From a virus (Duplodnaviria; Heunggongvirae; Uroviricota; Caudoviricetes), in the IMG/VR virus record IMGVR_UViG_3300025913_000024, positions 47,478 to 111,477 of that record: 64,000 nt of DNA; one strand, written 5' to 3'. The stretch's first letter is position 1. Every line of letters starts with the position of its first letter. Positions 1,587-25,129 of the stretch are shown here, piece by piece. The notes below the pieces were generated by a model. It did no database searches, was not told where the DNA came from, and saw only the letters and a list, made by a program, of their open reading frames with translations. Made by a program: the position numbers and the translations under genes.

Positions 1587-1613
1587 ACTTTGTTTTCGCC
1601 TTAGGAGCGAAAC

Positions 1614-1626
1614 GTATATTACTAAG
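1614..1626 (+). promoter_or_regulatory. weak variant (GTATATTACTAAG) of the recurrent TGAGATATTGTAG promoter-like motif
   Basis: Resembles the 37814 variant TGAGATATTACT; 23 nt upstream of the 1650 start codon. Confidence 0.3.
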
Positions 1627-1649
1627 TGAATTAGGAGGAGCACACCAAT

Positions 1650-2711: not shown

Positions 2712-2757
2712 AAAGTAAAGGTCTGCTACGCCTTTAGTAGAGACCTTGATTAAGTTG

Positions 2758-2797
2758 CCTCCTGGGAAACAGTTTAGACACCCAGGAGGATTTTTTA
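2758..2797 (+). terminator. rho-independent terminator
   Basis: CCTCCTGGG (2758-2766) pairs with CCCAGGAGG (2781-2789), followed by a T6 run at 2791-2796. Preceded by a second hairpin AAGGTCT/AGACCTT at 2718-2747. Confidence 0.7.
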
Positions 2798-2802
2798 TCT
2801 TC

Positions 2803-2814
2803 TGAGATATTGAG
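2803..2814 (+). promoter_or_regulatory. TGAGATATTGAG promoter-like motif (extended -10-like TGnGATATT)
   Basis: One of about 10 copies of TGAGATATTGTAG-like sequence, each 5-27 nt upstream of a start codon or RNA gene and often just after a terminator. Confidence 0.5.
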
Positions 2815-2828
2815 ATTAGGAGACGAAA

Positions 2829-3107
2829 ATGAAGACCCTTCTTTTGCTCATCGCTCTTGGTAACGGCCACTTTCAAGAACAGATCGTCTATCCTGACCAC
2901 ACGGTGGAAGGAGTTGTTTCTTTCGAAAAAGAGAACAAGGTCAATGTTCAGTTGAAAGGAAACACGATCCCGTCAAGCTACAAGGTCAAGAATGACATCT
3001 TGGTCGTGGAAGAGATGGGTTTTGCTGTGGAGAATCATGGCAAGGAGATCTGGTTGATCCCGTTGACTGAAACTCACTACAACAAGATCATCCTGAAGAA
3101 GAATTAA
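2829..3107 (+). CDS. hypothetical protein (92 aa)
   Basis: RBS AGGAGACG 8 nt upstream; ATG start. Confidence 0.55.
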   Translation: MKTLLLLIALGNGHFQEQIVYPDHTVEGVVSFEKENKVNVQLKGNTIPSSYKVKNDILVVEEMGFAVENHGKEIWLIPLTETHYNKIILKKN

Positions 3108-3592
3108 CGAGCGAAGTTGATAGGAACGATAGTGGCTCCGATCGAACCTTCTTTGCTGGTGAGTCGGAGTCCTTCTTCCATGAGTAAGAAGAGTTGTTCT
3201 TCAGAATCAACTTGGTGTTGGAAAGAATCAACGATGATTCTGAGGCATCGATTGACTTGGTCTGTCAACACAGTTTTTTGTTCTTGAAGTTCCTTGATGA
3301 CAGAACCAAGGCTCTCAAGATTAGCGGTGTCTGTCTTGACACCATTGATGTCCATGCTTGGAGTGTACATCAATCCAGGCAATCCAAGGTGAGCAGTGCC
3401 AACGTTGGCAGGTTTTGAGTACTTGTAGGTCAACTCTGCATACTTGGTCTCAGAATCAAGAAGGTCCTGAACTGCTTCATTGTACACAGGAAGAAGCTTA
3501 GAGACAAGCTCTAAGTTGCTGACAACATTTCCGTGATGTTGGTTGAACTCTGTCTTAAGTTGAGCAAGAAGCTCCTTGGCATTGACTGTCAT
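3104..3592 (-). CDS. hypothetical protein (162 aa)
   Basis: Minus-strand ORF whose end overlaps the next gene by 1 nt. Confidence 0.55.
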   Translation of the reverse strand: MTVNAKELLAQLKTEFNQHHGNVVSNLELVSKLLPVYNEAVQDLLDSETKYAELTYKYSKPANVGTAHLGLPGLMYTPSMDINGVKTDTANLESLGSVIKELQEQKTVLTDQVNRCLRIIVDSFQHQVDSEEQLFLLMEEGLRLTSKEGSIGATIVPINFAR

Positions 3593-4131
3593 TACTTTAC
3601 CTCGTAAAAGATCTTGGTTCCAGCTGGGTACTCAACACCTTCAAAGAAGGTAGATTGATTTAGTACCAAAAAAGGCAACTGAGGTTCGTGCTTAGGGTAC
3701 GGAGCCACAGGAGAACCAACGACATTGGCGAGATTTTCACTAGCAGATTGAACGTCTTCCAAGTTCTTCTTGGGATAGACAACGTTTAATTGAGCACTAC
3801 GATCATTCACCCCATCTCCACCAAACTCTGGTCCTAACTTTGCACCTTCAGGTGTGAAGAGGAAGTAATTGGCCCAAAATGAAAGGTCAGCTGCGTCAGA
3901 GTCAAAAGCTGTCTGTAGACCCTTGAGAGCACTCACGAGAGGGTTCTCTTGGATCATACCAAACTCTTCGCTGGTAGTTCCTTGTGAGGAATTTTGAGGA
4001 GATCCTGGGATCTGAGATGGTCGATCTACAAAGTATCGCTGAGCAAACTCATCAACGTTCTCTCCTGTAGGAGGAAGAAAGTTGACGTCTTTCAGGAACT
4101 CAGCGATCGTAGATTCCTTAAAGCCTTTCAT
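3592..4131 (-). CDS. hypothetical protein (179 aa)
   Basis: Minus-strand ORF in a three-gene block with overlapping stop and start codons. Confidence 0.55.
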   Translation of the reverse strand: MKGFKESTIAEFLKDVNFLPPTGENVDEFAQRYFVDRPSQIPGSPQNSSQGTTSEEFGMIQENPLVSALKGLQTAFDSDAADLSFWANYFLFTPEGAKLGPEFGGDGVNDRSAQLNVVYPKKNLEDVQSASENLANVVGSPVAPYPKHEPQLPFLVLNQSTFFEGVEYPAGTKIFYEVK

Positions 4132-5813
4132 TACTTGTAAGCTCCAGCCTTTCCTAAGAGTCCTTGACCTTCGAACTCGTCCTTGTATGCTTTGAAAGCA
4201 TACTGATCAAGTTCCTTGAGCCAAGCGTCATCGATCTCGTAGTACATGTTGTCAAGGCGATCTAACCATTTGTGATCTAGCTCACCTTCTTTGGCGTCTT
4301 CTTCTAATTGACCTTCTTCGTTACAATCATAGCAAGGAGCAGTTCCTTCACCGTGGCATTCTTCACAGTCGACTTGATCGATGTTTCCATCTTCGTCCTC
4401 GTCTTCAACTGTTCCTTCACCATCGCATTCTGGACACTTTACATATCTTTTGTTGTGGCAAGAGTAACATTCTTCATGAACACCTTGAACAACATCAGCA
4501 ATACTTTCAAAAATAGTGAAAACCTTTACTCCAGTATCGGTCTTAAAGATACCTTCTCTAGAAGCTAGTTCTAACATCTGGTCTTGAAGATCTGTGTCAT
4601 AAGAGTTGTTGCTAAAGTATCCTCGTTTCTCAGAGGCATACCCGTTATCAAGATACTGCATGATTCCACCATTACCGATCTGGTAGTTAGCAGCTCCAAA
4701 GAACACAACAATTGCTGCTTCATCTCCATAGGTATGTAGAATGTACTCAATGAACTCTCCCCAACTCTTGTCTTTAGCAGGACCGTTGTCTTGCCAATCT
4801 TCGTAACAAATGTCCATAATGGTCTGGAGGAAGCCGTGTTCTTCACCACTCTTTGGGGTTGCCTTTAATTTAGAGACAAGGTTTTGGGTGATCTTTTCTT
4901 GAAGTCTTTTATCGTTCATGTTTGTTCCTTTTGTGGATTCTTCAAAATCTTCATTCAAAAACTCATTAGGATTCACTGCATTCAAGAAGTCTTGAGCCAA
5001 AAGAGTTGCTGCAGAATGAACAATGCTTGCGTGGTCTTTTGCTAAGTGCCATCTTTTAGCATCTTCAATGAAAGAAACAATGGTTTCTAAGCTCACCATA
5101 TTGTTGATCCAATTTCTAGTTTTGTCTTGGTTGTAGTCATCTTCTGAAAGAAGTTCAACTGCGTCATCAATAACTTCATCGACAATTTCATCATGCTCAT
5201 GTCTAAATGAAGATTCTTCAAATCTAGTCTCGTGTTCAAAATCTTCAATCATGTCTTTTGGATCATTTAAGACTTCAAGAACTACTTCAGATAGCTCATC
5301 TGCATCAGACATGTTAGTAATTCTTTCTACATAACTTTTAACAAAACGATCCAAACTCTTAGAGTTTTTAACCTTAGTTTTGTTTTTTATGATCATCTTG
5401 AAAACTTTTTTAACGTTTCTAATGATGTCGGCCATGTAGTTATTCCACTCATCATTCCATTCATTTACATCGTCTTCGTCTTGCTCAAAGTCCATGTTTT
5501 CAATTTTTCTTTCATGAGACTTAAAGGCTTCGAGATCATCCTTAAGGGACTCGATAGCTATTTTGTCCAAGTTAGGTTGCATTCCGCCTCTAGCCTGCAT
5601 AAGGTTCACCATAGAGTCGGAACCAAGTGATTCTGAAAGGAGATTAGAAAGAAGAGAATCTAAGGTGTTAAGTGCTTCATGAGCCTTGAAACCATGTACA
5701 AACATAGCCTTTCTTTGCGCGTCAGCTTTCTTCTTTGAACGGAATTTGTGTGGATGTTTTGGAGGATTATCTCCAACATTTTCGTAGCCACCGTCAACTT
5801 TCTCTGTGCCCAT
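4131..5813 (-). CDS. acidic protein with C-terminal DnaJ-type cysteine-rich (CxxCxGxG repeat) zinc-finger domain
   Basis: C-terminus contains CYSCHNKR, CPECDGEG, CEECHGEG and CYDCNEEG, which is four CxxC(xGxG) repeats like the DnaJ CR domain. The rest is an acidic or basic low-complexity protein. Confidence 0.6.
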   Translation of the reverse strand: MGTEKVDGGYENVGDNPPKHPHKFRSKKKADAQRKAMFVHGFKAHEALNTLDSLLSNLLSESLGSDSMVNLMQARGGMQPNLDKIAIESLKDDLEAFKSHERKIENMDFEQDEDDVNEWNDEWNNYMADIIRNVKKVFKMIIKNKTKVKNSKSLDRFVKSYVERITNMSDADELSEVVLEVLNDPKDMIEDFEHETRFEESSFRHEHDEIVDEVIDDAVELLSEDDYNQDKTRNWINNMVSLETIVSFIEDAKRWHLAKDHASIVHSAATLLAQDFLNAVNPNEFLNEDFEESTKGTNMNDKRLQEKITQNLVSKLKATPKSGEEHGFLQTIMDICYEDWQDNGPAKDKSWGEFIEYILHTYGDEAAIVVFFGAANYQIGNGGIMQYLDNGYASEKRGYFSNNSYDTDLQDQMLELASREGIFKTDTGVKVFTIFESIADVVQGVHEECYSCHNKRYVKCPECDGEGTVEDEDEDGNIDQVDCEECHGEGTAPCYDCNEEGQLEEDAKEGELDHKWLDRLDNMYYEIDDAWLKELDQYAFKAYKDEFEGQGLLGKAGAYK

Positions 5814-5973
5814 TAGTGCCTATCTCCTTGCCAATGGTGAATTAGTACTTCAGATTCGTATATTATTAGAATCCGTAAATTGTGCAAAATCAGAAAAATC
5901 TAATCTAGAATTTTGGAATTTTGCACTCCACAAAACACTAATTAAGACTCGTGCACAGGAGCAAAAGTTCACC
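5814..5973. promoter_or_regulatory. divergent intergenic control region between the minus-strand block and the nrd operon
   Basis: 160-nt AT-rich spacer between divergent genes. Contains inverted repeat GTGCAAAAT (about 5879) and ATTTTGCAC (about 5924). Confidence 0.4.
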
Positions 5974-8298
5974 ATGCTGATCACCAAAAAAGATGGTTCT
6001 AACCAGCCTTTTGATGAGAACAAGGTTCTCAAAACCCTCAAGATAAGATCTGAGGGACTATCTGGAGTTAATCAAGATAAAATTTTCAAAGAGTTCACCA
6101 AGAACATCGCCGAAGGAATCTCAACGTCTGACCTAGAGAAGATGCTGATCCTTTCCGCGTCTTCATTGGCTGAAACTCACTTGGATTATGACAAGCTTGC
6201 CACTAGACTCTTCCTTCAGAAGATCTACAAAGAGGTTCTTGGCGGAACAGCTTCAGATGAAGAAAGAGACTCTGCTCACAAGCACGCTTTCATCCATTTC
6301 ATTGACTCCTCTCCTCTTCTTGACGATAGAATGAGAAACTGCTTCGACTTGGTCAGACTCTCCAATGCTCTTGATCTTGAACAAGACAAGAGGTTCAACT
6401 TCCTTGGTCTCACAAGCATCTACGAGAAGCTTCTCATTCGTGATGAAAACGGCTTCGTCAAAGAAACTCCACAGATGTTTTTCATGCGCGTCGCTATGGG
6501 TCTTTGTCTTGAAGACGTGGATGATTTCGTCCTTGATCTTTACGGGATCTACTCTCGTCATGAAGCCATCAGTTCAACCCCAACTCTCTTTGCTTCCGGC
6601 TTGAAGAAGGCTCAATTGTCTTCTTGTGCTGGTGGAGTCGTTACCGATACCACGGAGTCCATCTTCGGAACAGCTGAAGACTCTTTCAATCTTGGTAAGT
6701 GGAGCTATGGAATCGGTACCTCTGTTTCCAAGCTTCGTGCCATCGGAAGCACAGTTAAGTCCACAAGAATCCAATCCAGCGGAATCATCCCATTCCTTCA
6801 GATATACAACGCCATCTGTAACTCGGTCAATCGAGGAGGTCGTAAGAGAGGAGCCATGTGCTTCTACCTTGAGAACTGGCACTATGAGACTGAGGACTTC
6901 ATCAAGCTTCGCAGAAACTCTGGTGATGAGAGAATGAGAACCCACGATCTCAACACCGCTCTTTTCATCTCTGATGAGTTCATGAAGAGAGTTATGAGAG
7001 ACGAGCAATGGATGCTCATCGATCCTAAGGAAGCCATTGACAACGGTTACGACCTCACAGAGCTCTCTGGAAGAGCTTTCTCTCAAGCCTACAAAGAACT
7101 TGAGAACCTAGCTAAGGCCGGTAAGATCAAGCTCTTCAAGTTCATCAAGGCTAAGGACCTTTGGAAGCAACAGCTCCTTAGCCTCTTCGAGACCGGACAC
7201 CCTTGGGTCACGTTCAAGGATGCTATGAACGTCAGGAACCCAAACCAGAACTCAGGAAACATCTACTCCAGCAACCTCTGTACAGAGATCGCTCAGAACG
7301 TTCTTCCAGATGCCTCGGGAGCAGGAGAGTATTTCAACTGTTTCTTGGCTTCTGCTAACCTCGGTGAGATGTTTCATCCAGAGACCCAGTTCGATGTTGA
7401 GAAACTTACCCACGCTGTTCGAATCTTGGTACGAGCTTTGGACAATGCAAATGATTTGAACTATTACCCCACAGAAGGTGTAAGAGCCGGTTCACAACGA
7501 TACCGTTCTATCGGTGTTGGAGTTATGGGATGGCAAGACCTTCTATTTAAGAACAAGATTCCTTTTGATTCTCCTGAAGCTGTTGATCTTCTTGATCGAG
7601 TAGCTGAGGTTTGGAGTTACGCTGCAATTGATGCTTCTGCGGCTCTTGCTGTTGAAAGAGGAAGTTACCAGAACTTTGAAGGAAGTCTTTGGAGTCAAGG
7701 AATTCTTCCAGTTGACACCTTGGCCATGCTCTCAGAGTCAAGAGACCTTCCATTGACCGTAGAGTCAACCACTCGTCTGGATTGGGACGTCTTGAGAGAG
7801 AAGGTAAAGAAGGGCATGAGAAACGGTTACGTTATGTCTCCTGCTCCTAACGCTTCCACCGCTCTTTACTTGGGAGTTTATCCAGCTACTGAGGCTCAAT
7901 ATGCCAACATGTACTCCAAGGAGAACATGCTCGGTAAGTTCTCTATCATCAACGAGTATCTTGTAGATGATCTAGCTAAACTAGAGGGAATTGACGTTGA
8001 AGAAGTAGTTCAGAAGATCAAGAACTCTCGAGGAGATCTAGCAAAAGCTGGAATCAAGGACGAGAAGATCCTTGAGCTTTACAGAAATGCTTTTGAGGTA
8101 GATCCATTGGCACAGGTCGAACAAGCCAAGGTGCTTGCTAAGTGGATCGACCAATCACACTCCAGGAACATCTTCCTGGACACAAACAGTGGCAAGGTCT
8201 TGAATGATGTGTATCTTCAAGGTTGGTTGGGAGGTGTTAAGACCTTCTACTACTTGAGATCCAAGGCCGCCACATCAGCAGAGAACTCGACAGAATAA
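5974..8298 (+). CDS. nrdA: ribonucleoside-diphosphate reductase large subunit (class Ia, with ATP-cone)
   Basis: N-terminal ATP-cone (MLITKKDGSNQPFDENKVLKTLK) and catalytic motif SSNLCTEI. RBS AGGAG about 12 nt upstream of ATG 5974. The upstream in-frame extension to 5806 was rejected because it overlaps the divergent gene. Confidence 0.93.
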   Translation: MLITKKDGSNQPFDENKVLKTLKIRSEGLSGVNQDKIFKEFTKNIAEGISTSDLEKMLILSASSLAETHLDYDKLATRLFLQKIYKEVLGGTASDEERDSAHKHAFIHFIDSSPLLDDRMRNCFDLVRLSNALDLEQDKRFNFLGLTSIYEKLLIRDENGFVKETPQMFFMRVAMGLCLEDVDDFVLDLYGIYSRHEAISSTPTLFASGLKKAQLSSCAGGVVTDTTESIFGTAEDSFNLGKWSYGIGTSVSKLRAIGSTVKSTRIQSSGIIPFLQIYNAICNSVNRGGRKRGAMCFYLENWHYETEDFIKLRRNSGDERMRTHDLNTALFISDEFMKRVMRDEQWMLIDPKEAIDNGYDLTELSGRAFSQAYKELENLAKAGKIKLFKFIKAKDLWKQQLLSLFETGHPWVTFKDAMNVRNPNQNSGNIYSSNLCTEIAQNVLPDASGAGEYFNCFLASANLGEMFHPETQFDVEKLTHAVRILVRALDNANDLNYYPTEGVRAGSQRYRSIGVGVMGWQDLLFKNKIPFDSPEAVDLLDRVAEVWSYAAIDASAALAVERGSYQNFEGSLWSQGILPVDTLAMLSESRDLPLTVESTTRLDWDVLREKVKKGMRNGYVMSPAPNASTALYLGVYPATEAQYANMYSKENMLGKFSIINEYLVDDLAKLEGIDVEEVVQKIKNSRGDLAKAGIKDEKILELYRNAFEVDPLAQVEQAKVLAKWIDQSHSRNIFLDTNSGKVLNDVYLQGWLGGVKTFYYLRSKAATSAENSTE

Positions 8299-8320
8299 AG
8301 GAAAAGGAAGGAGAAGAGGT

Positions 8321-8614
8321 ATGGTTAAGATCTACACCACCAATAGCTGCGCTGTTTGCAAGCGAGCTAAGACTGATATGCTAGTTAAGGGCATTGCATA
8401 TGAGGAGCACAACGTCGAAGACAACGAACAAGACTTTGACGTGATGATTGAGGCGACTGGAAAAACTGCCGTTCCTCAATTTGACATCGATGGAGAGTGG
8501 GTGGTAGGTTACAACTCTTCGGTCATTGAGAAGGCTTCACGAGATGAAGACGACTTTGAACTTGTTGGAGTAGGTGGACAAGAGTACGCAACTTGCGAAT
8601 CTTGTGAAGGTTAA
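8321..8614 (+). CDS. nrdH: glutaredoxin/NrdH-like redoxin
   Basis: 97 aa with N-terminal CAVC (CxxC) motif in context YTTNSCAVCKRAK; located between nrdA and nrdB. Confidence 0.75.
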   Translation: MVKIYTTNSCAVCKRAKTDMLVKGIAYEEHNVEDNEQDFDVMIEATGKTAVPQFDIDGEWVVGYNSSVIEKASRDEDDFELVGVGGQEYATCESCEG

Positions 8615-8615
8615 C

Positions 8616-9617
8616 ATGGGAATTCTAGATATCCGAGATGAGATGGAGAACAAAGAACTCCATCGAAATCCATACCCACAATTTCTCAAACACTTTACCA
8701 ACGGTGTAGCCAACAACTGGACAGTTGCTGAGATCTCTCTTCAAGACGATCAAGAGCAATGGAACGTTCCTGGAAAGTTGACTGATGAAGAGAAGCAACT
8801 TGTTCTGAAGAACCTTAAGTTCTTCGGAGTTTGTGAAGCTCTTACCATGGACAACGTTGCTGTTGCTATCCTTCCTAGAATTCAAGACGGTTACGTGAGA
8901 ATGGCATTGATTCGCCAAGCTTATGAAGAAGCTCTTCACTCTCAAACCTTCTTGACCATCGCTGAGTCTCTTTCCATTAAGATCTCCGACATCTATCAAG
9001 AGTACAAGGACACGCCTTCTGTTAAGGCCAAGATTGATTTTGTTAATTATCTGATTGGACAAACAGAGAAAGACGGTTTTGATATCACAACGATTGAAGG
9101 TAAGCAAGATCTTCTTCAAGACATGATCGGGTTTTTCCAGATCCTTGAAGGAACCTTCTTCTTCACCAACTTTGCTCAATTGTTCTCTCTTCGTCGAAAG
9201 AACAAGATGAAAGGACTATCCAGCTTCATTGACTACATTGCAAGAGACGAATCTGTTCACATTGCTATCGGCCGAGACCTGATCAACATCATCATCAAAG
9301 AGTATCCCGAGATCTGGACTCCATCTTTTAGAGAAAAAATGAGTACATCTTTTGCAACCGCGGTTAGATTAGAAGATGCTTACTTAAACGATACTATTCC
9401 AGAGACTCTTCTAGGTCTTAATCGAGAATCGTTTAAGGATTACATTCGATTCATTGCCAATCGAAGAATGAAAGGTATTGGTCTAGAAGGTCTTTGGCCT
9501 AACATGAAAAATCCTTTCCCTTGGATGAGTACAGAGAATGATCTCCCTACTGAAACGAACTTCTTCGAGTCTAGACCAAAAGAGTACAAAACTGGCGATG
9601 TCAACATGGACTTCTAA
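8616..9617 (+). CDS. nrdB: ribonucleoside-diphosphate reductase small subunit
   Basis: Di-iron and tyrosyl-radical motifs EALHSQTF, ILEGTFFFTNFAQ and ARDESVHIAIG. ATG at 8616 overlaps the upstream stop codon. Confidence 0.9.
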   Translation: MGILDIRDEMENKELHRNPYPQFLKHFTNGVANNWTVAEISLQDDQEQWNVPGKLTDEEKQLVLKNLKFFGVCEALTMDNVAVAILPRIQDGYVRMALIRQAYEEALHSQTFLTIAESLSIKISDIYQEYKDTPSVKAKIDFVNYLIGQTEKDGFDITTIEGKQDLLQDMIGFFQILEGTFFFTNFAQLFSLRRKNKMKGLSSFIDYIARDESVHIAIGRDLINIIIKEYPEIWTPSFREKMSTSFATAVRLEDAYLNDTIPETLLGLNRESFKDYIRFIANRRMKGIGLEGLWPNMKNPFPWMSTENDLPTETNFFESRPKEYKTGDVNMDF

Positions 9618-16238: not shown

Positions 16239-18230
16239 ATGGGACAACTTCAGAGATTTAGAGAATCCTTCACCATGCAACAAGGTCAATTCGAAAGAAT
16301 TCCTTTGACCGAAGCTCTCCAAGAAAAGTATCACATTCCTGAGACCGTCAAGAGACTTACTGAATCTACCAAATATCAAGAGGCTACGACTAGACTTGTT
16401 GAAAAGGCTTTCAAAGACCTTGAGGAATCAGGTACTTCAGTAGAACTTATCTCTAGATTACGAGAAGCTCTAAAAGTAACACTTCCTGAAAACAGGAACC
16501 TTTACAAGTTTCCAGTCTCAAAGTACGACAACCTAAACATCAACAAGCGCCGATACCCAAAGAAACTTTGGGAAAGAGTTATTCATGATCAAGAAGATCG
16601 TTGGAAAGGACTCTCAGGTCTTGCTGACCACCCATCTGACGATTCTGATGGAGAGTTCAAGAACTCATCTATCGTTTGGTTGGACATGGAGATCGACCCA
16701 AAAACTAACCTAGTTTGGGGTGTGGGTGTTTTTGTTGGTCCTTACGGAAGACTTGCACAAGAGATCATTGACGTTGGTGGACGTGTTGGATTCAGCTCTT
16801 CAGGTTTTGGAGAGCTTGGTTATGACGGTGAGACCGTTGATCCAGAGTCCTACATCATCGAGCGTGTTGCAGACCTAGTTCTAAACCCTTCTCAAGGTGT
16901 TTATGGTGCTTCTGACAACAACTTGAATGTAGAGTACTCGTCTCAGAAACCTGTTAAAGAAAATTCTACTAATTCTCTAGAAACCCTTTCTCGGGTGGAG
17001 GAAAAACACCGAATGTCTGAACAAACTAAACCTGCTATTAGCAAGATCGAGGAGAAGAAGTTCCGAAGAGACGTTGAGTCTCTCTTGAACGACGCTTCTA
17101 AGTTAGCCGACCCTCAGGTTCGTCTTGTAGAACTCACAGAGATCCTCGACGCCTTTGAGGAAGGAATTGCTCCTGATCTTAGAGAAAAGGTTGAGACCGA
17201 GATCTTAGCTGAGAAGCTCAAGATCGAGACCATGCTTCGTGAAACAAGCGAGACCCTTTCCGCTTTTGGAGCTACTAGCCCTGATGCTATCAAGGCCGGA
17301 GTTGCTCTTCTTGCCGAAGAGGTTAACCTAGTCGCTGCTGAGGCAAAAGACTGGGAGAAGATCGCTATTGCCCTAAGAGACAGCAACAAGTCTCTTAAGG
17401 AAGAGAACCAGAAGCTCTCTGCAGAGCTTTCTATCCGTCCTTCTGTTGATGCTTTCGGAAAACTCACTGAGAAGGTCAAGGTTCTTGAAGAACAAAAGCA
17501 CAAGTTCGCTACTAAGTATCTTCAGGAAGCTGAAGAAGAGAACGAAACATCAGAAGAGATGGAAAAGAAGATGGAGTCTCTTAACAATGAGATCTCTGGT
17601 CTTAAGTCCAAGATTCTTGAGTTCGTCTCCCAAGAGAAGAAGTTCGCTTCTGCTCATGCTGCCGAGATCACCGAGTCCAAGAAAGAAGTTGAGTCAGCTA
17701 AGAAGTTGGCCGAGGAATCTAAGCTTGCTCTAGAAGAAGCCGAGACCACCATCGACCTTCAGGAACAACAGATCACCAGACTTCAGAACAGTCTCAAGGA
17801 AACTAGAGTCGCTGCTCAGAAGCTTGAGGAAGAATACGTAAACTTCCAGAATCAAGTTAAGCTTGAGAGTGCACCTCCTAAGATCGTTCCTCGCTTTGAG
17901 GAGAGAGTCAATGGACTCTTGAACTTCAGAGAGAACAACGGTGTTGAAGTTGAAGCTCTTTGGCAGACCTTGACCGATCGTCACGGTTCTGCTATTAAGC
18001 CTTTTGAGAAGAACATCAGAGGAGCCAAGACCATCAGAGAGGCTACCTCAGCTTACTACCGAGCACTTCCTGAGTTTGAAGAGAACAACATCGCTCTTCA
18101 CGAAGCTGAACTTCCAGATTCTACCTCTGTTACCAGACAAGAAAGAGTTGAGATGTTCGAGCGCCAAGGTGTTAAGTTTGGTGGAAAGACCTTGATCGAC
18201 AGAGTCCTTGAGAGAAAGGGCTACCAGTAA
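16239..18230 (+). CDS. head-assembly protein, N-terminal globular domain plus long C-terminal coiled coil (putative prohead core/scaffold)
   Basis: 663 aa. The C-terminal approximately 350 aa are heptad-like and E/K-rich. Located between the scaffold-like and capsid genes. Confidence 0.4.
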   Translation: MGQLQRFRESFTMQQGQFERIPLTEALQEKYHIPETVKRLTESTKYQEATTRLVEKAFKDLEESGTSVELISRLREALKVTLPENRNLYKFPVSKYDNLNINKRRYPKKLWERVIHDQEDRWKGLSGLADHPSDDSDGEFKNSSIVWLDMEIDPKTNLVWGVGVFVGPYGRLAQEIIDVGGRVGFSSSGFGELGYDGETVDPESYIIERVADLVLNPSQGVYGASDNNLNVEYSSQKPVKENSTNSLETLSRVEEKHRMSEQTKPAISKIEEKKFRRDVESLLNDASKLADPQVRLVELTEILDAFEEGIAPDLREKVETEILAEKLKIETMLRETSETLSAFGATSPDAIKAGVALLAEEVNLVAAEAKDWEKIAIALRDSNKSLKEENQKLSAELSIRPSVDAFGKLTEKVKVLEEQKHKFATKYLQEAEEENETSEEMEKKMESLNNEISGLKSKILEFVSQEKKFASAHAAEITESKKEVESAKKLAEESKLALEEAETTIDLQEQQITRLQNSLKETRVAAQKLEEEYVNFQNQVKLESAPPKIVPRFEERVNGLLNFRENNGVEVEALWQTLTDRHGSAIKPFEKNIRGAKTIREATSAYYRALPEFEENNIALHEAELPDSTSVTRQERVEMFERQGVKFGGKTLIDRVLERKGYQ

Positions 18231-20066: not shown

Positions 20067-21845
20067 ATGTCAGGTGGAATCACCGGAAGAATGAACAGCG
20101 AATTGCGCGAAGCTATCACTGATAAGCTTTACCGCGATGAGCGCTCCTACCGCGACGACAAGCTCGTTGAAAAGTGGAACAGAATTCCCGAGGTAGGAAA
20201 GAATATTAAGAAGCTCGACGAAGGAACCGCAAGGCTCTTGGCTCGTCACTTGGAAAACCAAGCTCGCTTCATGGGTCGCTTGACTGAGGCCCAACTCTCT
20301 AGCGGATTCCAGGGTTTCTCCCCTGAGAACATGCTTCGTTTGGTTCGTTTGGCATACCCAAACACCATCAGAAACAAGCTCTTCACCGAGTTCGCAATGG
20401 AATCCGCAAAGGACTCCATCAAGTATATCCGCCCTGTCTACACCACCACCGCTAACGGTCAGAACTTGAACGATCGTACCTTCGGTGTTCCTGGTTGGTC
20501 AAACGCTGGCGATGCCTACGATCCTGCCGATCCTTGGAACCTTAACGGTTCGAACGACATCAACAACAGCGACTACCGCAGAGCAATGTACGAAACCAAC
20601 GAAGATCGTTACACCAACCCAATGGCTAACGCTCTTGTTGCAACTTTCGACGGAACTCACACTTGGACCGTTTACGACTCTGTTAAGGCAGTTCAGACGT
20701 TCTCTGCCGTTACCGACACATCAGCTGTTGCTAACGTTGGTGGAACCACTCTAACCCTTAACACCACCGGAACTTGGGTCATCTATGGTACTCTTACCAT
20801 CGGTACCACCCACGCCGCAGTCGGTTCTTCTGCCTTCTCTCTCGGCTACGTCGATGGATACGCTTCTCTCTTCACTGCAGCAGACAGCTATCCTCCTTCC
20901 GCCGGAACTGGTTGGCACCTTCAGGAGCAGAACGTCATCGCTACTCAGAACAAGACTGGCGCTGCTCTCTCCGTTAACGGATCTTGGATGATCAAGTCTG
21001 GATCCACTCTCACCATCACCGCAACCTCCCTCGTTGGTGTGTTCGCTCTCGGTGGTGCAGATGCCGCAAACGTCCGCGGTGGTTATGGCCGTTTTAACCC
21101 AGAAGGTGACTTCCAGGGTAACTTCCTTGGTGAAGTTGAGTTGATCATGACCGACTACTGGTTCAGACCACAGCCAACTACCATTGGTGTTACGTGGAGC
21201 CAGTTGACCGAGCTTGTTCTCGACACCTCCTTCGGAGTTGCCGCTGAGGAGCTCTTGGTTGACTACGCTGGCCAGGAAATCAAGAGATCTCTCGACGTTC
21301 GCGCCGTAAAGATCGCTTACCAAGCCGCCAAGATGAACCCAAGCTACTACACGATCACCTTTGATGCATCCTCTGGAAATAGCACGGACGACTCTTACCT
21401 CTCTACCGCTCAGACCTTCACTCAGGCTATCGCCCGTGTTGCAGACGTTCAATTGAACGATATCAACCGTGGTGGAGTTAGCCGAATGGTTGGTGGACCT
21501 GCAGCAATGACTTACCTCCGCATGGTCGGTGGTTTCTCTGCTAAGGGCCAGATGACCCCAGTCGGTGGTCACCAGATTGGAGAGCTTCAGGGCATTCCAT
21601 TGTTCAAGGTTCCTTCTAACGTCATCCCTGATGACGAGATCCTTTGTGTTTGGAAGAACGACGAGAACGAGGCAGACGTTGCAGTTGCCTTCGGTACCTT
21701 GGTTCCTTTCTTCAGCACTGGTATCATCCAGAGGAAGAACTTCTACAAGGAAGCAGGTCTTTCGACCTACGGTGACTGGAACGTTCTAAACAGACGTTAC
21801 CTTGGTCTTATCAAGATCACCGGTCTCCGCCAGCTCCAGAACTAA
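20067..21845 (+). CDS. major capsid protein, T4 gp23-like
   Basis: N-terminal region (KWNRIPEVGKNIKKLDEGTARLLARHLENQARFMG, then VRLAYPNT) aligns by eye with the T4 gp23 Delta-region (KWKPLLEGEGLPEIANSKQAIIAKIFENQEKDF, then VRRAIPNL). Strong RBS AAAAGGAAAAC; about 592 aa; followed by a terminator. Confidence 0.7.
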   Translation: MSGGITGRMNSELREAITDKLYRDERSYRDDKLVEKWNRIPEVGKNIKKLDEGTARLLARHLENQARFMGRLTEAQLSSGFQGFSPENMLRLVRLAYPNTIRNKLFTEFAMESAKDSIKYIRPVYTTTANGQNLNDRTFGVPGWSNAGDAYDPADPWNLNGSNDINNSDYRRAMYETNEDRYTNPMANALVATFDGTHTWTVYDSVKAVQTFSAVTDTSAVANVGGTTLTLNTTGTWVIYGTLTIGTTHAAVGSSAFSLGYVDGYASLFTAADSYPPSAGTGWHLQEQNVIATQNKTGAALSVNGSWMIKSGSTLTITATSLVGVFALGGADAANVRGGYGRFNPEGDFQGNFLGEVELIMTDYWFRPQPTTIGVTWSQLTELVLDTSFGVAAEELLVDYAGQEIKRSLDVRAVKIAYQAAKMNPSYYTITFDASSGNSTDDSYLSTAQTFTQAIARVADVQLNDINRGGVSRMVGGPAAMTYLRMVGGFSAKGQMTPVGGHQIGELQGIPLFKVPSNVIPDDEILCVWKNDENEADVAVAFGTLVPFFSTGIIQRKNFYKEAGLSTYGDWNVLNRRYLGLIKITGLRQLQN

Positions 21846-21871
21846 TCTAGACTAGATTCTTAAGTCAAGAA

Positions 21872-21899
21872 AAACCCTCTCGAAAGAGAGGGTTTTTTA
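21872..21899 (+). terminator. rho-independent terminator (GAAA tetraloop)
   Basis: CCCTCTC-GAAA-GAGAGGG followed by T6. Confidence 0.85.
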
Positions 21900-21927: not shown

Positions 21928-22458
21928 ATGACACACTACTTCAGCACAGAAGATCTAGAACGACTCATGATGAATCAGATCCAATACCAAAAGGATCTAG
22001 ATGAAGAATTTAAGGTTCCTCTTCTTGACATTGGTTCAACTCTTGAACGTCACCTTCGAAGCATTGAGATCCCATCGGATAGAGTCAAGATCTTGGTGAT
22101 GAACACCTCTGTTGAGAAGTTCACCATCAACAACACTGAGGTGATCATCCATGCAAAGCCGATCCCAACTCTGGAGTCAAAGGATCTCGAGTTCTTTCCA
22201 GAGCAAAAGAGATACATTGAAGAAAACATTCAAGACGTGTTTGATACTCTGACAGAGTTCGACTTCTTGGTCTTCGGTCTTTTCATCCCATATGTGTTGA
22301 ATGGAACCATGACTTGGAACACTGACATCAATGAACAACCTAACGCTCTTAAGACCTCAGCCTTCTTGGGAGGTTACATGGTCTTAACCACAAAGACATC
22401 TCCTTACTCGTTGGATGCTTACTCCAAGGAATGGAGAAAGATGCTTGACAATAGTTAG
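21928..22458 (+). CDS. capsid-protein-terminus mimic family member A (176 aa)
   Basis: N-terminal LERLMMNQIQYQKDL and C-terminal FLVFGLFIPYVLNGT motifs shared with the major capsid protein and three tandem paralogues. Confidence 0.6.
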   Translation: MTHYFSTEDLERLMMNQIQYQKDLDEEFKVPLLDIGSTLERHLRSIEIPSDRVKILVMNTSVEKFTINNTEVIIHAKPIPTLESKDLEFFPEQKRYIEENIQDVFDTLTEFDFLVFGLFIPYVLNGTMTWNTDINEQPNALKTSAFLGGYMVLTTKTSPYSLDAYSKEWRKMLDNS

Positions 22459-22487
22459 GTTTATACTATGTTGATTAGGAGATCCTT

Positions 22488-23030
22488 ATGATCGAAGTTC
22501 CAGAAACAGAACTCTATGGAATGTTTCAAAACCAACTTAAGTTCCAAGAAAGACTTCCTGAGACTAACACTTTTCTAAAGTTCCTTCCTCCGATCGATGT
22601 GGGAACTAAGATTAGAAAGGTCTTTGGAACTCTAAATGTTCCTGAGAATACTAAAATCATCTCTTTGGATACAGCCAAAGCTGCCTATTCTTACAAAAAA
22701 GATGCTCTAGATAAAGCTCTTTTCTTTCCAGAAGAAGGAGATTCTGTCTACTACTTCAGAGTTAGACCAATCTCCTTACTAGGTGAAGTTTACACCCATC
22801 CTTCAGATCAAGAAAGAGACTTTTTCTTAGATTTCAAGAACAATCTAGAAAACTTCATTAACGAGATCTCAAACAAAACAAATGATCCTTCTAAAAAGAT
22901 AGTTCTAGGAATTCTAGTTCCATTCTTCCTTACTGGAGCTATTCAAAGAGAGAACTTCTTCAAGGACTCTCAATTGGCTCTGTATGGGGATTGGACCACT
23001 ATTGATGTTCAGGTAAAATCAGATGATTGA
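22488..23030 (+). CDS. capsid-protein-terminus mimic family member B (180 aa)
   Basis: N-terminal MFQNQLKFQERL. C-terminal VLGILVPFFLTGAIQRENFFKDSQLALYGDW is nearly identical in pattern to the capsid C-terminus GTLVPFFSTGIIQRKNFYKEAGLSTYGDW. Confidence 0.65.
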   Translation: MIEVPETELYGMFQNQLKFQERLPETNTFLKFLPPIDVGTKIRKVFGTLNVPENTKIISLDTAKAAYSYKKDALDKALFFPEEGDSVYYFRVRPISLLGEVYTHPSDQERDFFLDFKNNLENFINEISNKTNDPSKKIVLGILVPFFLTGAIQRENFFKDSQLALYGDWTTIDVQVKSDD

Positions 23031-23529
23031 AGAGACTTTGATAAAGGTGATCTCCCAATCTCAGCTTGATCAACTTTACGAGAACCAAAAAAACTATTAC
23101 TACACCCTAAACGACCATCATCCTTTGGTAGATGCTCTCCCTCTCTATAAGGTCAAAGAAGCCTTGGAACAAGTCTTTCAAGGTCTCAATGTTCCAAATA
23201 ATGTTGATTTTCATGTTGTAAGTAACCCAAACGGATTGAATGATCCAGGAGATTGGTACAACTATGATAGGTTTACCGATGAAGGAGAGAAGGTCTCAGT
23301 TCAATATTGGTTTAGACTTTATCCTGGAAAGGTCATAGTAGAGTTGACTCCATCGTTCTTAGATGATTACAAGAAAGAGTTTCAGAACTACATCAACAAG
23401 AACTTAGCAGAGATTAAGAGATGGCATCCTAGAAAAAAGATGGTCATGACGATTGCCATTTGGATTCCTTTCTGGTTTAACACTTCAAGTAGAAATGTGA
23501 ACTTGTTCGGCGACCATCTCATTCATTAA
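23023..23529 (+). CDS. capsid-protein-terminus mimic family member C (168 aa)
   Basis: N-terminal LDQLYENQKNYYYTL and C-terminal MTIAIWIPFWFNTSSRNVNLFGDHL. Confidence 0.6.
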   Translation: MIEETLIKVISQSQLDQLYENQKNYYYTLNDHHPLVDALPLYKVKEALEQVFQGLNVPNNVDFHVVSNPNGLNDPGDWYNYDRFTDEGEKVSVQYWFRLYPGKVIVELTPSFLDDYKKEFQNYINKNLAEIKRWHPRKKMVMTIAIWIPFWFNTSSRNVNLFGDHLIH

Positions 23530-23538
23530 GGAAAAAGT

Positions 23539-24492
23539 ATGAAACTATCTTATGAACAAAAGATTCAAATCTTAATTGATAATCAACTAAAGTACATGAA
23601 AACTCTTAAAGACGAAGACAAGAAACGTTTTCCCTTTAAAGAAGAACATGTAGAAAAGATGGTAAGAACCATCTTCAAAGAAGATGGTGTGATCAATCAA
23701 ATGTTTGATTGGACAACTTCTCCTGTAGGAGAACCATTAACCACAGATTACCTGGTAACATCTATGTCTGGTCCAGAAGATGGGATTCCAGAAGTTACTC
23801 TTGATATAAAAACCCATACGTTCACAAAGGGTCATCATTCTTATCTAGTAACATCGTCATCTAAACTTGACGAGATTAAAGAAAGTATGAAAATATGGGG
23901 AGAAGAAGTTCTTATTCAGATTGTAGCTGAAGCACTACGAAACAGTTTAGGGTCTCGTTTCATCAAAGAGATTCAAAAAATCATTGAGTTGAATCCTTAT
24001 TACAAAAGCCTATTTGATATACCTTTCTCTATAGAAGAGACAGAGGGAAGATCGTTTGTTAAATCGGTAGACGTTTCATTCGTTCAAAATTATGTTCATG
24101 CTGAAGCAAGTATGTACAGACAACTCACTAGAGGTGGAGTTACTCATATTTTATCAGGTGTTTTAATGGATTCTTATTGGAGAGTCCACCAGCAATTTGA
24201 TTGGAGATCTGCTACTCAACCAGTTTTTATTCATAGAACGGGATCTATCCAAGGAATCCAGATGTGGAGAGGCCCAAAACATCTTATTGAAGAAAGTTCT
24301 GGTTATTTTCTTTGGAAAAATCCAGATATAGAAGAAGATAAGCTAATGACTCTCGCTATTCAAACCCCTTTTATTTTAAGTAACAGATCAAACGATTTCT
24401 CTTCTAACGAGTTCTTCTTTGACGGAGACTTAGTAGTCTTTCAACCAGGATACGTAAGAGAGATTAAACTCTTAGGTTTGCCATCCATCTAA
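23539..24492 (+). CDS. capsid-protein-terminus mimic family member D (317 aa)
   Basis: N-terminal ILIDNQLKYMKTL and C-terminal LMTLAIQTPFILSNRSNDFSSNEFFFDGDLV. Confidence 0.6.
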   Translation: MKLSYEQKIQILIDNQLKYMKTLKDEDKKRFPFKEEHVEKMVRTIFKEDGVINQMFDWTTSPVGEPLTTDYLVTSMSGPEDGIPEVTLDIKTHTFTKGHHSYLVTSSSKLDEIKESMKIWGEEVLIQIVAEALRNSLGSRFIKEIQKIIELNPYYKSLFDIPFSIEETEGRSFVKSVDVSFVQNYVHAEASMYRQLTRGGVTHILSGVLMDSYWRVHQQFDWRSATQPVFIHRTGSIQGIQMWRGPKHLIEESSGYFLWKNPDIEEDKLMTLAIQTPFILSNRSNDFSSNEFFFDGDLVVFQPGYVREIKLLGLPSI

Positions 24493-24509: not shown

Positions 24510-24761
24510 ATGCCACTAAAACCTCGAATCGGTGTCCACTACGAAAGCATCAGGCCACAAGAAACCGCTGAGATGGCCATTCAACGACTTAAGATCAGAC
24601 CTAAGGATTGGGTCATTCTTCCTATCATCAAACTTTCTGGATCTCAAAAGATCCTTCCACTTAAGTTCTCAGGTATCTCAGACTCGATGACTAAGATCGA
24701 AGGACCTGGTTTTATCATTGAAAAAATGTACGATCTTTTGACTAAATCCCAAATCTCTTAA
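24510..24761 (+). CDS. hypothetical protein (83 aa)
   Basis: ORF co-oriented with neighbours. Confidence 0.45.
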   Translation: MPLKPRIGVHYESIRPQETAEMAIQRLKIRPKDWVILPIIKLSGSQKILPLKFSGISDSMTKIEGPGFIIEKMYDLLTKSQIS

Positions 24762-24772: not shown

Positions 24773-24785
24773 ACGAGAGGTGAAC

Positions 24786-25082
24786 ATGATCGGAAAACTG
24801 ATTGGTGGTGTGGTCCTCGTGATCATCGCTGCTATTCTGTTCTGGCTGATTTGGGGTCTTCTGACCCCCTGGATCGTCAATTCCATCCCCGCTGGGGAGT
24901 GGAAAGCTTTCATGGGTGTGGTGGTCACCATCGTCGTGGGTTGGTTTGGAGGAATCGTTCTTCCTCTGGTCCCCCTGATTGCTGGTATCGTCTTCATCTT
25001 CAAGTTCTTCGGTCAGGCTTTTGCCTTGGCCACCGGTTCGAACATCGGTAAGTATCGTTACCGTGGTCGTCCCTACCAGTAA
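24786..25082 (+). CDS. small integral membrane protein (3 TM), on a GC-rich island
   Basis: RBS GAGAGG; hydrophobic throughout; noticeably higher GC than the flanks; followed by a terminator. Confidence 0.6.
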   Translation: MIGKLIGGVVLVIIAAILFWLIWGLLTPWIVNSIPAGEWKAFMGVVVTIVVGWFGGIVLPLVPLIAGIVFIFKFFGQAFALATGSNIGKYRYRGRPYQ

Positions 25083-25103
25083 GAACTTTCAGTTTTGTTA
25101 AAG

Positions 25104-25129
25104 ATCCTCCCGAAAGGGAGGATTTTTTA
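25104..25129 (+). terminator. rho-independent terminator (GAAA tetraloop)
   Basis: ATCCTCCC-GAAA-GGGAGGAT followed by T6. Confidence 0.85.

What the first reader, a model, noticed from the sequence alone, without database searches (positions are those of the whole stretch)
21928..24492. Four tandem small proteins that copy both termini of the gp23-like major capsid protein
Directly downstream of the capsid gene and its terminator lie four consecutive ORFs of 176, 180, 168 and 317 aa. Each begins with a capsid-like N-terminal motif L....NQ.(K/Q)(Y/F)...L, comparable to the capsid protein LARHLENQARFMGRL and the T4 gp23 Delta-region IFENQEKDF. Each ends with the capsid C-terminal motif (h)hhPFhhT/NG..Q/R....(LYGDW), for example ILVPFFLTGAIQRENFFKDSQLALYGDW versus TLVPFFSTGIIQRKNFYKEAGLSTYGDW in the capsid protein. 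The middle of each protein is unrelated. These look like proteins that present the same scaffold or prohead-docking and lattice-contact termini as the capsid protein. Candidates are prohead-targeted cargo or internal proteins, decoration or vertex proteins, or capsid-assembly modulators. No family built this way is known to me.
Basis: seen in the sequence. Interest (0 to 1): 0.75.

Follow-up and report, generated by a model that had tools for sequence, protein, structure and literature searches.

The report
Tandem cut-down copies of capsid gene
Just after its major capsid gene, an uncultured jumbo phage carries four diverged copies of that gene, and three of them keep only the capsid protein's outer edge and N-terminal arm, a form I found in no library or paper and whose role in head assembly is inferred, not shown.

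Summary
The four ORFs (176, 180, 168 and 317 aa) are real, have ribosome-binding sites and lie at the stated coordinates. The shared N- and C-terminal motifs are real. The claim that the middles are unrelated to the capsid protein is wrong. ORF4 is an ordinary paralogue of the gp23-like major capsid protein (MCP) across the whole C-terminal half (E 2e-18) and lacks only the large insertion domain, so it resembles T4 gp24. ORF1-3 form one family of 139-197 aa proteins, with nine members found among 1.84 billion representatives. A profile of this family matches about 25 different MCPs in three collinear blocks: MCP 63-122, 365-418 and 534-577. The small proteins are therefore MCPs with the insertion domain and the axial (A) domain deleted. 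Mapped onto T4 gp23, the retained blocks are the N-arm, the strand plus spine helix, and the P-domain hairpin with the P loop. These elements make contacts between capsomers at quasi-threefold axes. The genes persist under purifying selection in a second phage. They are absent next to the MCP in about 25 relatives. My best reading, which is inferred, is that they are accessory head-assembly or minor capsid proteins that dock on the scaffold and on capsomer edges. Structure prediction failed and no functional data exist.

The parts
16239..18230 (+). 663-aa candidate prohead protease fused to a coiled-coil scaffold-like region. It is context for the head module. The assignment is weak.
   Evidence: Pfam Peptidase_S77 E 0.051, below the cut-off, over residues 98-215. 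A PDB sequence search gave no support. The position upstream of the MCP matches the 'head maturation protease' of phage QdP_Psa3.
20067..21845 (+). gp23-like major capsid protein (592 aa from the ATG at 20067), parent of the paralogues.
   Evidence: Pfam Gp23 E 5.7e-6 and phrog_138 'major head protein' E 4.5e-7. Family profile vs T4-like gp23 profile: E 2.3e-10 over 420 columns. RBS aaaggaaaacatt-ATG.
21869..21898 (+). Intrinsic terminator between the MCP and ORF1 (13-bp stem, GAAA loop, T run).
   Evidence: It is not conserved in the sister locus L003.
21928..22458 (+). ORF1, 176 aa. The most diverged mini-capsid paralogue, with a degenerate C-terminal hairpin.
   Evidence: A profile built without it finds it at E 1.9e-8. 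BLASTP to L003's 173-aa protein gives E 3e-7 over 153 aa. No direct significant match to the MCP. Its slot is occupied by a Lar gene in L003.
22488..23030 (+). ORF2, 180 aa. The canonical mini-capsid paralogue: N-arm block, YYFRVRP strand, long helix, and P-loop hairpin ILVPFFLTGAIQRENFFKDSQLALYGDW.
   Evidence: Its orthologue P0004 is 59% identical. pN 0.27 vs pS 0.76.
23023..23529 (+). ORF3, 168 aa. A mini-capsid paralogue that overlaps ORF2 by 8 nt (consistent with translational coupling) and has a shortened C-terminal hairpin.
   Evidence: ORF2 vs ORF3 E 6e-12 over 171 aa. Leave-out profile E 6e-16. The block YDRFTDEGE..YWFRLYPGKV matches MCP 341-387 at E 0.007.
23539..24492 (+). ORF4, 317 aa. 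An MCP paralogue with P and A domains but no insertion domain; a gp24-like candidate.
   Evidence: BLASTP vs MCP 379-588 E 2e-18. hhalign E 1.4e-15 over 229 columns. Its N-terminus matches the small family at E 1.6e-4. Orthologue P0002 is 48% identical. pN 0.32 vs pS 0.78.
24510..24761 (+). 83-aa basic protein (pI 9.75) of unknown function, conserved next to the array in L003. It lies between the same two terminators.
   Evidence: 62% identity to the L003 ORF at 2693-2944. dN/dS 0.16. No family hit.
25100..25127 (+). Next strong terminator, the likely 3' end of the unit that holds ORF1-4, the 83-aa gene and a 100-aa membrane-like ORF.

Best explanation
SHOWN. The four genes are diverged tandem paralogues of the adjacent gp23-like major capsid gene. 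ORF4 keeps the HK97 core (P and A domains) and lacks the roughly 240-aa insertion domain. ORF1-3 belong to one small family (139-197 aa) that corresponds to MCP residues about 59-127, 365-418 and 531-577. They are the capsid protein minus the insertion domain and minus the axial A domain. By profile alignment to T4 gp23, the retained blocks are the end of the delta region with the ENQ motif plus the N-arm, the strand leading into the spine helix, and the P-domain beta-hairpin that carries the P loop. The small proteins end where the T4 A-P linker begins.

INFERRED. The A domain builds the capsomer centre. The P domain, P loop and N-arm make the contacts between capsomers at quasi-threefold axes and face the scaffold. 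The mini-proteins therefore probably cannot form capsomers themselves, but can still dock on the scaffolding core and on the free edges of MCP capsomers. I propose they are low-abundance accessory head proteins made with the late head genes. ORF4 would act as a gp24-like special-position or vertex subunit. ORF1-3 would act as edge or quasi-threefold adaptors that stabilise or tune contacts between capsomers in a very large capsid, for example at positions where a third P loop is missing, such as around the portal. An L-x-E tripeptide right after the NQ motif in the MCP and in most paralogues suggests cleavage by the prohead protease. This is conjecture.
For: - **Homology.** ORF4 vs MCP: E 2e-18 and hhalign E 1.4e-15. 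The small-family profile gives three collinear hits on the MCP profile at E 7e-10, 5.5e-5 and 7.5e-4, repeated with a 14-MCP profile.
- **Independent MCPs.** The same three blocks are found in about 25 different MCPs at E 1e-16 to 1e-11. A profile made only from six non-window members hits hmm 13-70 to MCP 63-122, hmm 85-123 to MCP 365-418 and hmm 124-167 to MCP 534-577.
- **Mapping to T4.** MCP family vs gp23 family: E 2.3e-10, with T4 numbering verified. The shared hairpin aligns to T4 444-482. That stretch holds A455 (P-domain sheet) and T457/R460/G461 (P loop, head-length mutations). The N-terminal block covers the region of the A94V and G97S length mutations. P loops and P-domain strands make the quasi-threefold contacts between capsomers (PMC9546572).
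- **Real, selected genes.** RBSs are present. ORF2-ORF3 overlap by 8 nt, as do the L003 genes. The order ORF2-ORF3-ORF4-83aa is conserved in L003 at 59%, about 30%, 48% and 62% identity, with pN 0.27-0.47 well below a saturated pS of 0.76-0.80.
- **Spread.** Further full-length members occur in other metagenomic phages (P0008-P0011). A subfamily, L3_197 and P0008, is conserved at E 2e-38.
- **Reduced expression is plausible.** A strong terminator lies between the MCP and ORF1.
- **Precedent.** T4 gp24 arose from gp23 by duplication and is dispensable through bypass mutations (PMC9958956).
Against: - The helix block is not significant on its own.
- The array is absent within 10 kb of the MCP in about 25 related phages, so it is not a core capsid component.
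- The other family members sit on short contigs, not visibly beside an MCP.
- The slot after the MCP is a variable accessory region in relatives: Lar, homing-endonuclease-like genes, a radical SAM cluster.
- The paralogues are far less conserved (27-59% identity) than the MCP C-terminus (94%), which is unusual for tight lattice partners.
- The terminator is not conserved in L003.
- The protease assignment is weak. Glu at the putative cleavage position is missing in ORF3, ORF4 (TLKD, with Glu one residue later), L3_173 and P0010 (read from the alignment and the sequences).
- No expression or virion data exist.
Confidence: 0.5

Rival explanations
1. Assembly modulators rather than virion components. 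The mini-proteins transiently cap capsomer edges or occupy scaffold sites. They could prevent off-pathway polymerisation (polyheads), set head size, or interfere with the capsid assembly of co-infecting related phages. They are then removed and not retained in the particle.
For: They keep the contact module between capsomers but lack the capsomer-forming A domain. In T4, all well-characterised head-length mutations cluster in the regions they retain, namely the P loop, the area near the short P-domain helix, and the N terminus (PMC9546572). They are accessory and patchily distributed.
Against: The MCP hairpin is nearly invariant across the clade. An edge-capping protein would therefore act on the phage's own capsid as well. 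No data bear on timing or stoichiometry. Four diverged copies are not obviously needed for a simple capping role.
Confidence: 0.2
2. Prohead-targeted internal or cargo proteins. The N-terminal delta-like motif targets them to the scaffolding core. The protease cleaves after L-x-E. The remainder stays inside the head or is ejected.
For: All four ORFs begin with the NQ motif of the MCP delta region. L-x-E follows it in the MCP (RLTE), ORF2 (RLPE), ORF1 (DLDE), L3_323 (SLSE), P0008 (RLSE) and P0011 (NLTE), read. T4 targets internal proteins by an N-terminal sequence, and gp21 trims gp23 and gp24 (PMC9958956).
Against: All members are acidic, with pI 4.7-6.0 like the MCP, whereas T4 internal proteins are basic (my own knowledge). 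The most conserved part is the P-loop hairpin, which cargo would not need. Glu is missing at the putative site in several members. The putative site is not the position aligned to the T4 cleavage site.
Confidence: 0.12
3. Counter-defence or decoy proteins. They present the conserved capsid epitopes to host immune sensors that recognise capsid protein. More generally, they could be fast-evolving accessory genes unrelated to assembly.
For: They lie in a hypervariable slot after the MCP. In the sister phage, ORF1's place is taken by a Lar restriction-alleviation gene (PF14354, E 7e-11). They diverge rapidly compared with the MCP. Their distribution is patchy.
Against: There is no similarity to any PADLOC, Pfam or PHROG family. 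Retention of the scaffold-facing motif and N-arm is unexplained by this model. A decoy that binds a sensor would be expected to trigger it. The neighbouring non-paralogous 83-aa gene is equally diverged (62% identity), so the divergence is not exceptional.
Confidence: 0.08
4. Decaying duplicates of the capsid gene with no function. This applies at most to the most degenerate copies, ORF1 and ORF3.
For: ORF1 and ORF3 have degenerate or truncated hairpins. ORF1 is absent from L003. ORF3 and its positional counterpart share only about 27-32% identity. GC3 is low in ORF2 and ORF4 (0.33 and 0.28, against 0.58 for the MCP).
Against: The reading frames are intact and have RBSs. The same domain architecture is kept in nine members from several phages. 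pN is below pS at saturated divergence. Gene order and overlaps are conserved.
Confidence: 0.1

Closest known systems
T4 gp24 head vertex protein, a paralogue of gp23
   Same: It derives from the major capsid gene by duplication and is encoded downstream of it. It shares the HK97 P and A domains and an N-terminal propeptide. It is dispensable in evolution through bypass-24 mutations (PMC9958956). ORF4 fits this pattern.
   Different: gp24 keeps the insertion domain and ORF4 lacks it. ORF4 is an independent duplication: it is closest to its own MCP and has no direct Pfam Gp23 hit. It is absent from about 25 relatives. The small ORF1-3 also lack the A domain, which gp24 never does.
T4 internal proteins and other core proteins carrying an N-terminal capsid-targeting sequence
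   Same: They are small proteins with an N-terminal element that could direct them to the scaffolding core and be removed by the prohead protease (PMC9958956).
   Different: The element here is the MCP's own delta-region/N-arm block of about 60 aa, not a 10-aa targeting sequence. The proteins are acidic and are capsid-protein paralogues with a P domain.
Satellite-encoded capsid-remodelling proteins such as SaPI CpmB and the MCP homologue Ccm (my own knowledge, not tested here)
   Same: These proteins reuse an interaction element of a helper phage's head-assembly protein, or are themselves a capsid-protein homologue. They use it to alter assembly.
   Different: They are encoded by satellites and act on a helper phage. 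CpmB mimics the scaffold, not the capsid protein. Ccm is a complete HK97 protein. Here the genes lie in the phage's own head module.
Decoration or cement proteins at quasi-threefold sites, such as T4 Soc and lambda gpD
   Same: They are accessory proteins, often dispensable, that act at the junctions between capsomers (PMC9546572).
   Different: Their folds are unrelated to the capsid protein, and they bind only the expanded outer surface. The mini-proteins are MCP-derived and keep the scaffold-facing N-terminal motif. No Pfam or PHROG decoration family matches.

Membership tests
gp23-type (HK97-fold) major capsid protein superfamily, as paralogues | Significant sequence homology to a gp23-type MCP across the P and A domains | tested here: met
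   ORF4: BLASTP E 2e-18 over MCP 379-588 and hhalign E 1.4e-15 over 229 columns. The parent MCP matches Pfam Gp23 at E 5.7e-6 and T4-like gp23 profiles at E 2.3e-10. ORF4 itself has no direct Pfam hit.
gp23-type (HK97-fold) major capsid protein superfamily, as paralogues | Complete HK97 core including the axial A domain (tested for ORF1-3) | tested here: not met
   The small-family profile covers only MCP 63-122, 365-418 and 534-577. MCP regions of about 123-364 and 419-533 have no counterpart in proteins of 139-197 aa.
gp23-type (HK97-fold) major capsid protein superfamily, as paralogues | HK97-like three-dimensional fold | tested here: inconclusive
T4 gp24-type vertex protein | MCP paralogue encoded downstream of the MCP gene in the head module | tested here: met
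   ORF4 is the fourth gene after the MCP on the same strand. The arrangement is conserved in L003.
T4 gp24-type vertex protein | Forms the pentamers at the eleven non-portal vertices | not testable with these tools
   Needs virion cryo-EM or proteomic stoichiometry.
T4 gp24-type vertex protein | Domain set of gp24 (P, A and insertion domains) | tested here: not met
   ORF4 aligns to MCP 355-589 and, weakly, to the N-terminal block. The roughly 240-aa insertion region is missing.
T4 gp24-type vertex protein | Present across related phages that share the MCP | tested here: not met
   No second MCP-like gene lies within 10 kb of the MCP in about 25 related loci. It is found only in the window (also held as L002) and in the sister contig held as L003 and L004.
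Prohead-targeted internal proteins (T4 IPI-III type) | Short N-terminal targeting peptide ending in an L/I-x-E protease site | tested here: inconclusive
   L-x-E follows the NQ motif in the MCP, ORF1, ORF2, L3_323, P0008 and P0011. It is absent in ORF3, L3_173 and P0010 (sequences). The protease identity is weak.
Prohead-targeted internal proteins (T4 IPI-III type) | Small basic DNA-associated proteins (my own knowledge of T4 internal proteins) | tested here: not met
   All nine small members have pI 4.7-6.0.
Known capsid decoration, cement or anti-defence families | Match to a curated family model | tested here: not met
   No Pfam, PHROG or PADLOC family matches any member.

The most novel reading that the evidence does not exclude
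The 139-197-aa proteins are a new class of HK97-derived minor capsid protein: free-standing P-domain plus N-arm modules. They would insert a P loop into quasi-threefold junctions of the lattice, for example where a partner is missing next to the portal or at special positions of a very large capsid. In that way they would set or stabilise the angles between capsomers, and so head size. ORF4 would be an independently evolved vertex subunit without an insertion domain.
Probability: 0.28. Interest if true: 0.8.

Novelty: new variant of a known kind. Interest (0 to 1): 0.6.

Why it matters
Duplication of the capsid gene to make a specialised second shell protein is known from T4 gp24. A family that keeps only the peripheral contact module of the HK97 fold, without the capsomer-forming A domain, appears in none of the libraries or papers I could search. 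If these proteins enter the shell or steer its assembly, they would show a new way in which very large capsids are tuned or stabilised. They would also provide a natural minimal P-domain reagent for dissecting quasi-threefold contacts, the region where T4 head-length mutations cluster. If they are only accessory or decaying copies, the locus still documents stepwise domain loss in HK97 proteins. It also marks the slot after the capsid gene as a hotspot for accessory genes in this jumbo-phage clade.

Tried and rejected
- **PDB sequence searches.** Searches with the MCP profile and with the N-terminus of the putative protease gave only noise.
- **GenBank phages.** Megablast of the locus found nothing, tblastn of the MCP found only one distant hit, and tblastn of ORF2 found nothing.
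- **IMG/VR.** Scans with ORF4, P0008, P0009 and P0011 found no relatives.
- **Direct match to T4.** The small-family profile against T4-like gp23 profiles is not significant (E 0.45), although the best alignment falls at the homologous hairpin.
- **Helix block.** The small proteins' helix block alone shows no detectable similarity to the MCP in shuffle tests.
- **Promoters.** The T4 late-promoter consensus TATAAATA is absent from the window. Sigma-70-like hits are at the chance level.
- **dN/dS.** Exact values could not be computed for ORF2-4 because synonymous sites are saturated.
- **Literature.** Searches for A-domain-less or truncated capsid paralogues found nothing relevant.
Full report
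**1. The observation**

The window holds a head module on the + strand. It starts with a 663-aa protein that has a weak prohead-protease signal, followed by a 504-aa protein. Next comes a gp23-like major capsid protein (MCP; ATG at 20067, stop at 21845; Pfam Gp23 E 5.7e-6; phrog_138 'major head protein' E 4.5e-7). A 13-bp-stem terminator lies at 21869-21898. Four ORFs follow at exactly the stated coordinates: 176, 180, 168 and 317 aa.

ORF1, ORF2 and ORF4 have AAGGA/AGGAG ribosome-binding sites like the one before the MCP. ORF3 overlaps ORF2 by 8 nt. The window is part of a 305,853-bp metagenomic contig, so this is a jumbo phage. It has no close relative among GenBank phages.

**2. Are the shared termini more than chance?**

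- **C-terminal motif.** Yes, clearly.
  - ORF2 vs MCP gives E 4e-13, with 47% identity over 45 aa.
  - A profile of the small proteins' C-terminal part scores 34-38 bits on five MCPs. The maximum in 2000 shuffles is 6 bits.
  - Taken singly, ORF1 and ORF3 are not significant against the MCP.
- **N-terminal motif.**
  - The pattern [LIM]..[LIMF]..NQ..[YFWH]...L occurs in these four ORFs and nowhere else in the six-frame ORF segments of the window, where 0.02 hits are expected. I derived the pattern post hoc from the four.
  - Its similarity to the MCP is marginal as a bare motif.
  - It becomes significant once the alignment runs on through the next 50 or so residues (hhalign E 5.5e-5 over 64 columns).

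**3. The middles are not unrelated**

- **ORF4.** It aligns to MCP 379-588 at E 2e-18 and to the MCP family profile over 229 columns at E 1.4e-15. It is a true MCP paralogue that lacks the MCP's large insertion, about residues 128-355.
- **ORF1-3.**
  - They are homologous to each other over their full length. ORF2 vs ORF3 gives E 6e-12 over 171 aa.
  - The L003 proteins of 173 and 197 aa match each other at E 7.6e-19. ORF1 matches the 173-aa protein at E 3e-7.
- **Size of the family.**
  - An exhaustive profile search of 1.84 billion representatives found eight proteins at E below 1e-3. All are 139-190 aa and are matched end to end. They include four new members from other metagenomic phages, P0008-P0011.
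  - With ORF2, whose cluster representative in that library is P0004, and with P0006 counted as a fragment of the 197-aa L003 protein, this gives nine distinct members.
- **Leave-out test.** Profiles that exclude the tested sequence recover each window member: ORF1 at E 1.9e-8, ORF3 at E 6e-16 and ORF2 at E 5e-36.

**4. Relation of the small family to the MCP**

Profile-profile comparison gives three collinear local alignments (E 7e-10, 5.5e-5 and 7.5e-4). A 14-MCP profile reproduces them.

An hmmsearch of the family profile against the ORFs of 37 loci hits about 25 different MCPs. Most are hit by the same three pieces; the more distant ones show only two, or the C-terminal block alone (E 1e-16 to 1e-11).

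A profile built only from six non-window members maps as follows:

| Family profile positions | MCP residues | Content |
|---|---|---|
| 13-70 | 63-122 | NQ motif, MLRLVRLAYP, FAMESAKDSIKY |
| 85-123 | 365-418 | YWFRPQP strand and the following helix |
| 124-167 | 534-577 | C-terminal hairpin |

The small proteins are therefore the MCP with two internal segments removed, about 123-364 and 419-533.

**5. Which domains are these?**

The MCP family aligns with T4-like gp23 proteins over 420 columns (E 2.3e-10). The T4 sequence I used is 100% identical to X01774.1, and its numbering reproduces the published mutation names. Domain assignments below come from the T4 head structures paper (PMC9546572).

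- The shared hairpin corresponds to T4 444-482. [quoted passage not shown] It also contains T457, R460 and G461, the P loop where three capsomers meet at quasi-threefold axes and where head-length mutations map.
- The T4 A-P linker (486-502) begins where the small proteins stop.
- The N-terminal block covers the end of the delta region (T4 FENQ 37-40) and the N-arm. The N-arm region holds the length mutations A94V and G97S.
- The middle block covers the strand before the spine helix and the helix itself.
- The missing segments are the insertion domain and the A domain.

The small proteins are thus N-arm plus P-domain modules. This mapping rests on sequence alignment only. AlphaFold2 gave low-confidence models (pLDDT 57.5 and 34) and fold searches were uninformative. 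The ORF2 model does show a 24-residue helix (108-131) followed by a strand (138-143) at the positions expected for a spine helix and a P-domain strand.

**6. Are they functional genes?**

A second phage carries a related array. It is known from a 3.2-kb contig (L003; L004 is a second copy of the same contig from another source). Its MCP C-terminus is 94% identical to the window's. The gene order there is MCP, a 77-aa Lar restriction-alleviation gene in place of ORF1, then a 173-aa, a 197-aa, a 323-aa and an 83-aa gene.

| Gene in the window | Identity to the L003 counterpart |
|---|---|
| ORF2 | 59% |
| ORF3 | about 27-32% |
| ORF4 | 48% |
| 83-aa neighbour | 62% |

Synonymous sites are saturated (pS 0.76-0.80), while pN is 0.27-0.47. 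This indicates long-term purifying selection. The 8-nt gene overlaps are conserved. One subfamily, L3_197 and P0008, is conserved across phages at E 2e-38. ORF1 and ORF3 are the most degenerate copies.

**7. Distribution**

About 25 related jumbo-phage loci have MCPs 56-74% identical, or more distant. None has a paralogue within 10 kb of the MCP.

The space after the MCP is variable in these relatives. It holds homing-endonuclease-like genes, a radical SAM cluster, or other genes. The other family members lie on short contigs with no MCP visible nearby.

No member matches Pfam, PHROGs or PADLOC. None is found in GenBank phages, in IMG/VR or in species-representative genomes.

**8. Mechanism (inferred)**

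In T4, the A domain forms the capsomer core and the insertion domain clamps neighbours within a capsomer. The P loop and P-domain strands fasten capsomers to each other at quasi-threefold axes. The delta region and N-arm face the scaffold and neighbouring subunits (PMC9546572; PMC9958956).

A protein that keeps only the latter elements should be able to dock on the core and on capsomer edges without forming capsomers. My best reading has three parts:

- The genes encode low-abundance accessory head proteins.
- ORF4 is a gp24-like special-position subunit.
- ORF1-3 are edge or quasi-threefold adaptors or stabilisers.

The rivals are transient assembly or size modulators, cleaved internal cargo, counter-defence decoys, and decay of the weaker copies.

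Three observations bear on the rivals. The proteins are acidic, which argues against T4-type internal proteins. A Lar gene in ORF1's slot and the patchy distribution keep the accessory and counter-defence reading open. The L-x-E tripeptide after the NQ motif in the MCP and most paralogues suggests protease processing, but the protease assignment is weak and the site is not universal.

**9. Comparison and novelty**

ORF4 is a new, independently arisen member of a known kind, a gp24-like MCP paralogue, and it is unusual in lacking the insertion domain. The small family has no described counterpart that I could find: MCP-derived proteins lacking the A domain. It is a new variant of capsid-gene paralogy. 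Its function is unproven.

Noticed in passing
L009 3288-3611 and 4987-6336; L018 476-838 and 2227-3555; L036 7335-7628 and 8786-10201: In three related phages the MCP gene is split into two collinear pieces separated by about 1.2-1.4 kb. This suggests an intron, intein or homing-endonuclease insertion inside the capsid gene.
   Followed up: partly
L003 382-615 (slot of ORF1): In the sister phage, a 77-aa Lar restriction-alleviation protein (PF14354, E 7e-11) occupies the position of ORF1 directly after the MCP. The slot after the capsid gene exchanges accessory genes.
   Followed up: yes
L005 about 2200-3860; L008 3696-4313; L001/L007/L011 downstream of the MCP: Downstream of the MCP, relatives carry Cys-rich repeat proteins. 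By eye these resemble homing endonucleases; I did not test them. In three loci there is instead a cluster of large proteins that look like radical SAM enzymes, judged by eye from their cysteine motifs and not tested. The region is hypervariable.
   Followed up: no
window 13551, 16217, 18298, 19894, 24497 (also 34691, 37410): All seven copies of TAACTAA lie on the + strand. Five lie in the intergenic spacers of the head module, for example 22 nt before the start codons of both the 663-aa and the 504-aa genes. The overall count is at chance (7 against 6.4 expected). None precedes ORF1-4. It could be a promoter or processing motif, or just stacked stop codons.
   Followed up: partly
window 21504-21842 vs L003 3-341, compared with the neighbouring genes: Between the two phages, synonymous divergence of the MCP C-terminus (dS 0.56) is far lower than that of the adjacent genes (saturated, or 1.6). 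Either strong codon constraint acts on the capsid gene (GC3 0.58 against 0.28-0.53 for ORF1-4) or the history is mosaic.
   Followed up: partly
window 24780-25082: A 100-aa, very hydrophobic ORF with a GTG start and unusually high GC (0.525, GC3 0.63) ends the transcription unit just before the terminator at 25100-25127. It looks like a membrane protein and has no family match.
   Followed up: no
window 12-2711 and 5806-9617: rIIA-like and rIIB-like genes (phrog_612 E 8e-20; phrog_609 E 6e-66) and class I ribonucleotide reductase large and small subunits lie upstream of the head module. This is consistent with a T4-like core in a jumbo genome.
   Followed up: yes
window 50126-56936 (- strand): A 1471-aa protein has a phage tail collar domain (E 9e-11) and a weak C-terminal C1q-like domain. 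It is followed by a 664-aa protein with another weak C1q-like match. These are candidate tail fibres.
   Followed up: no
window 1-64000: ARAGORN finds no tRNA gene in 64 kb of a 306-kb phage genome.
   Followed up: yes
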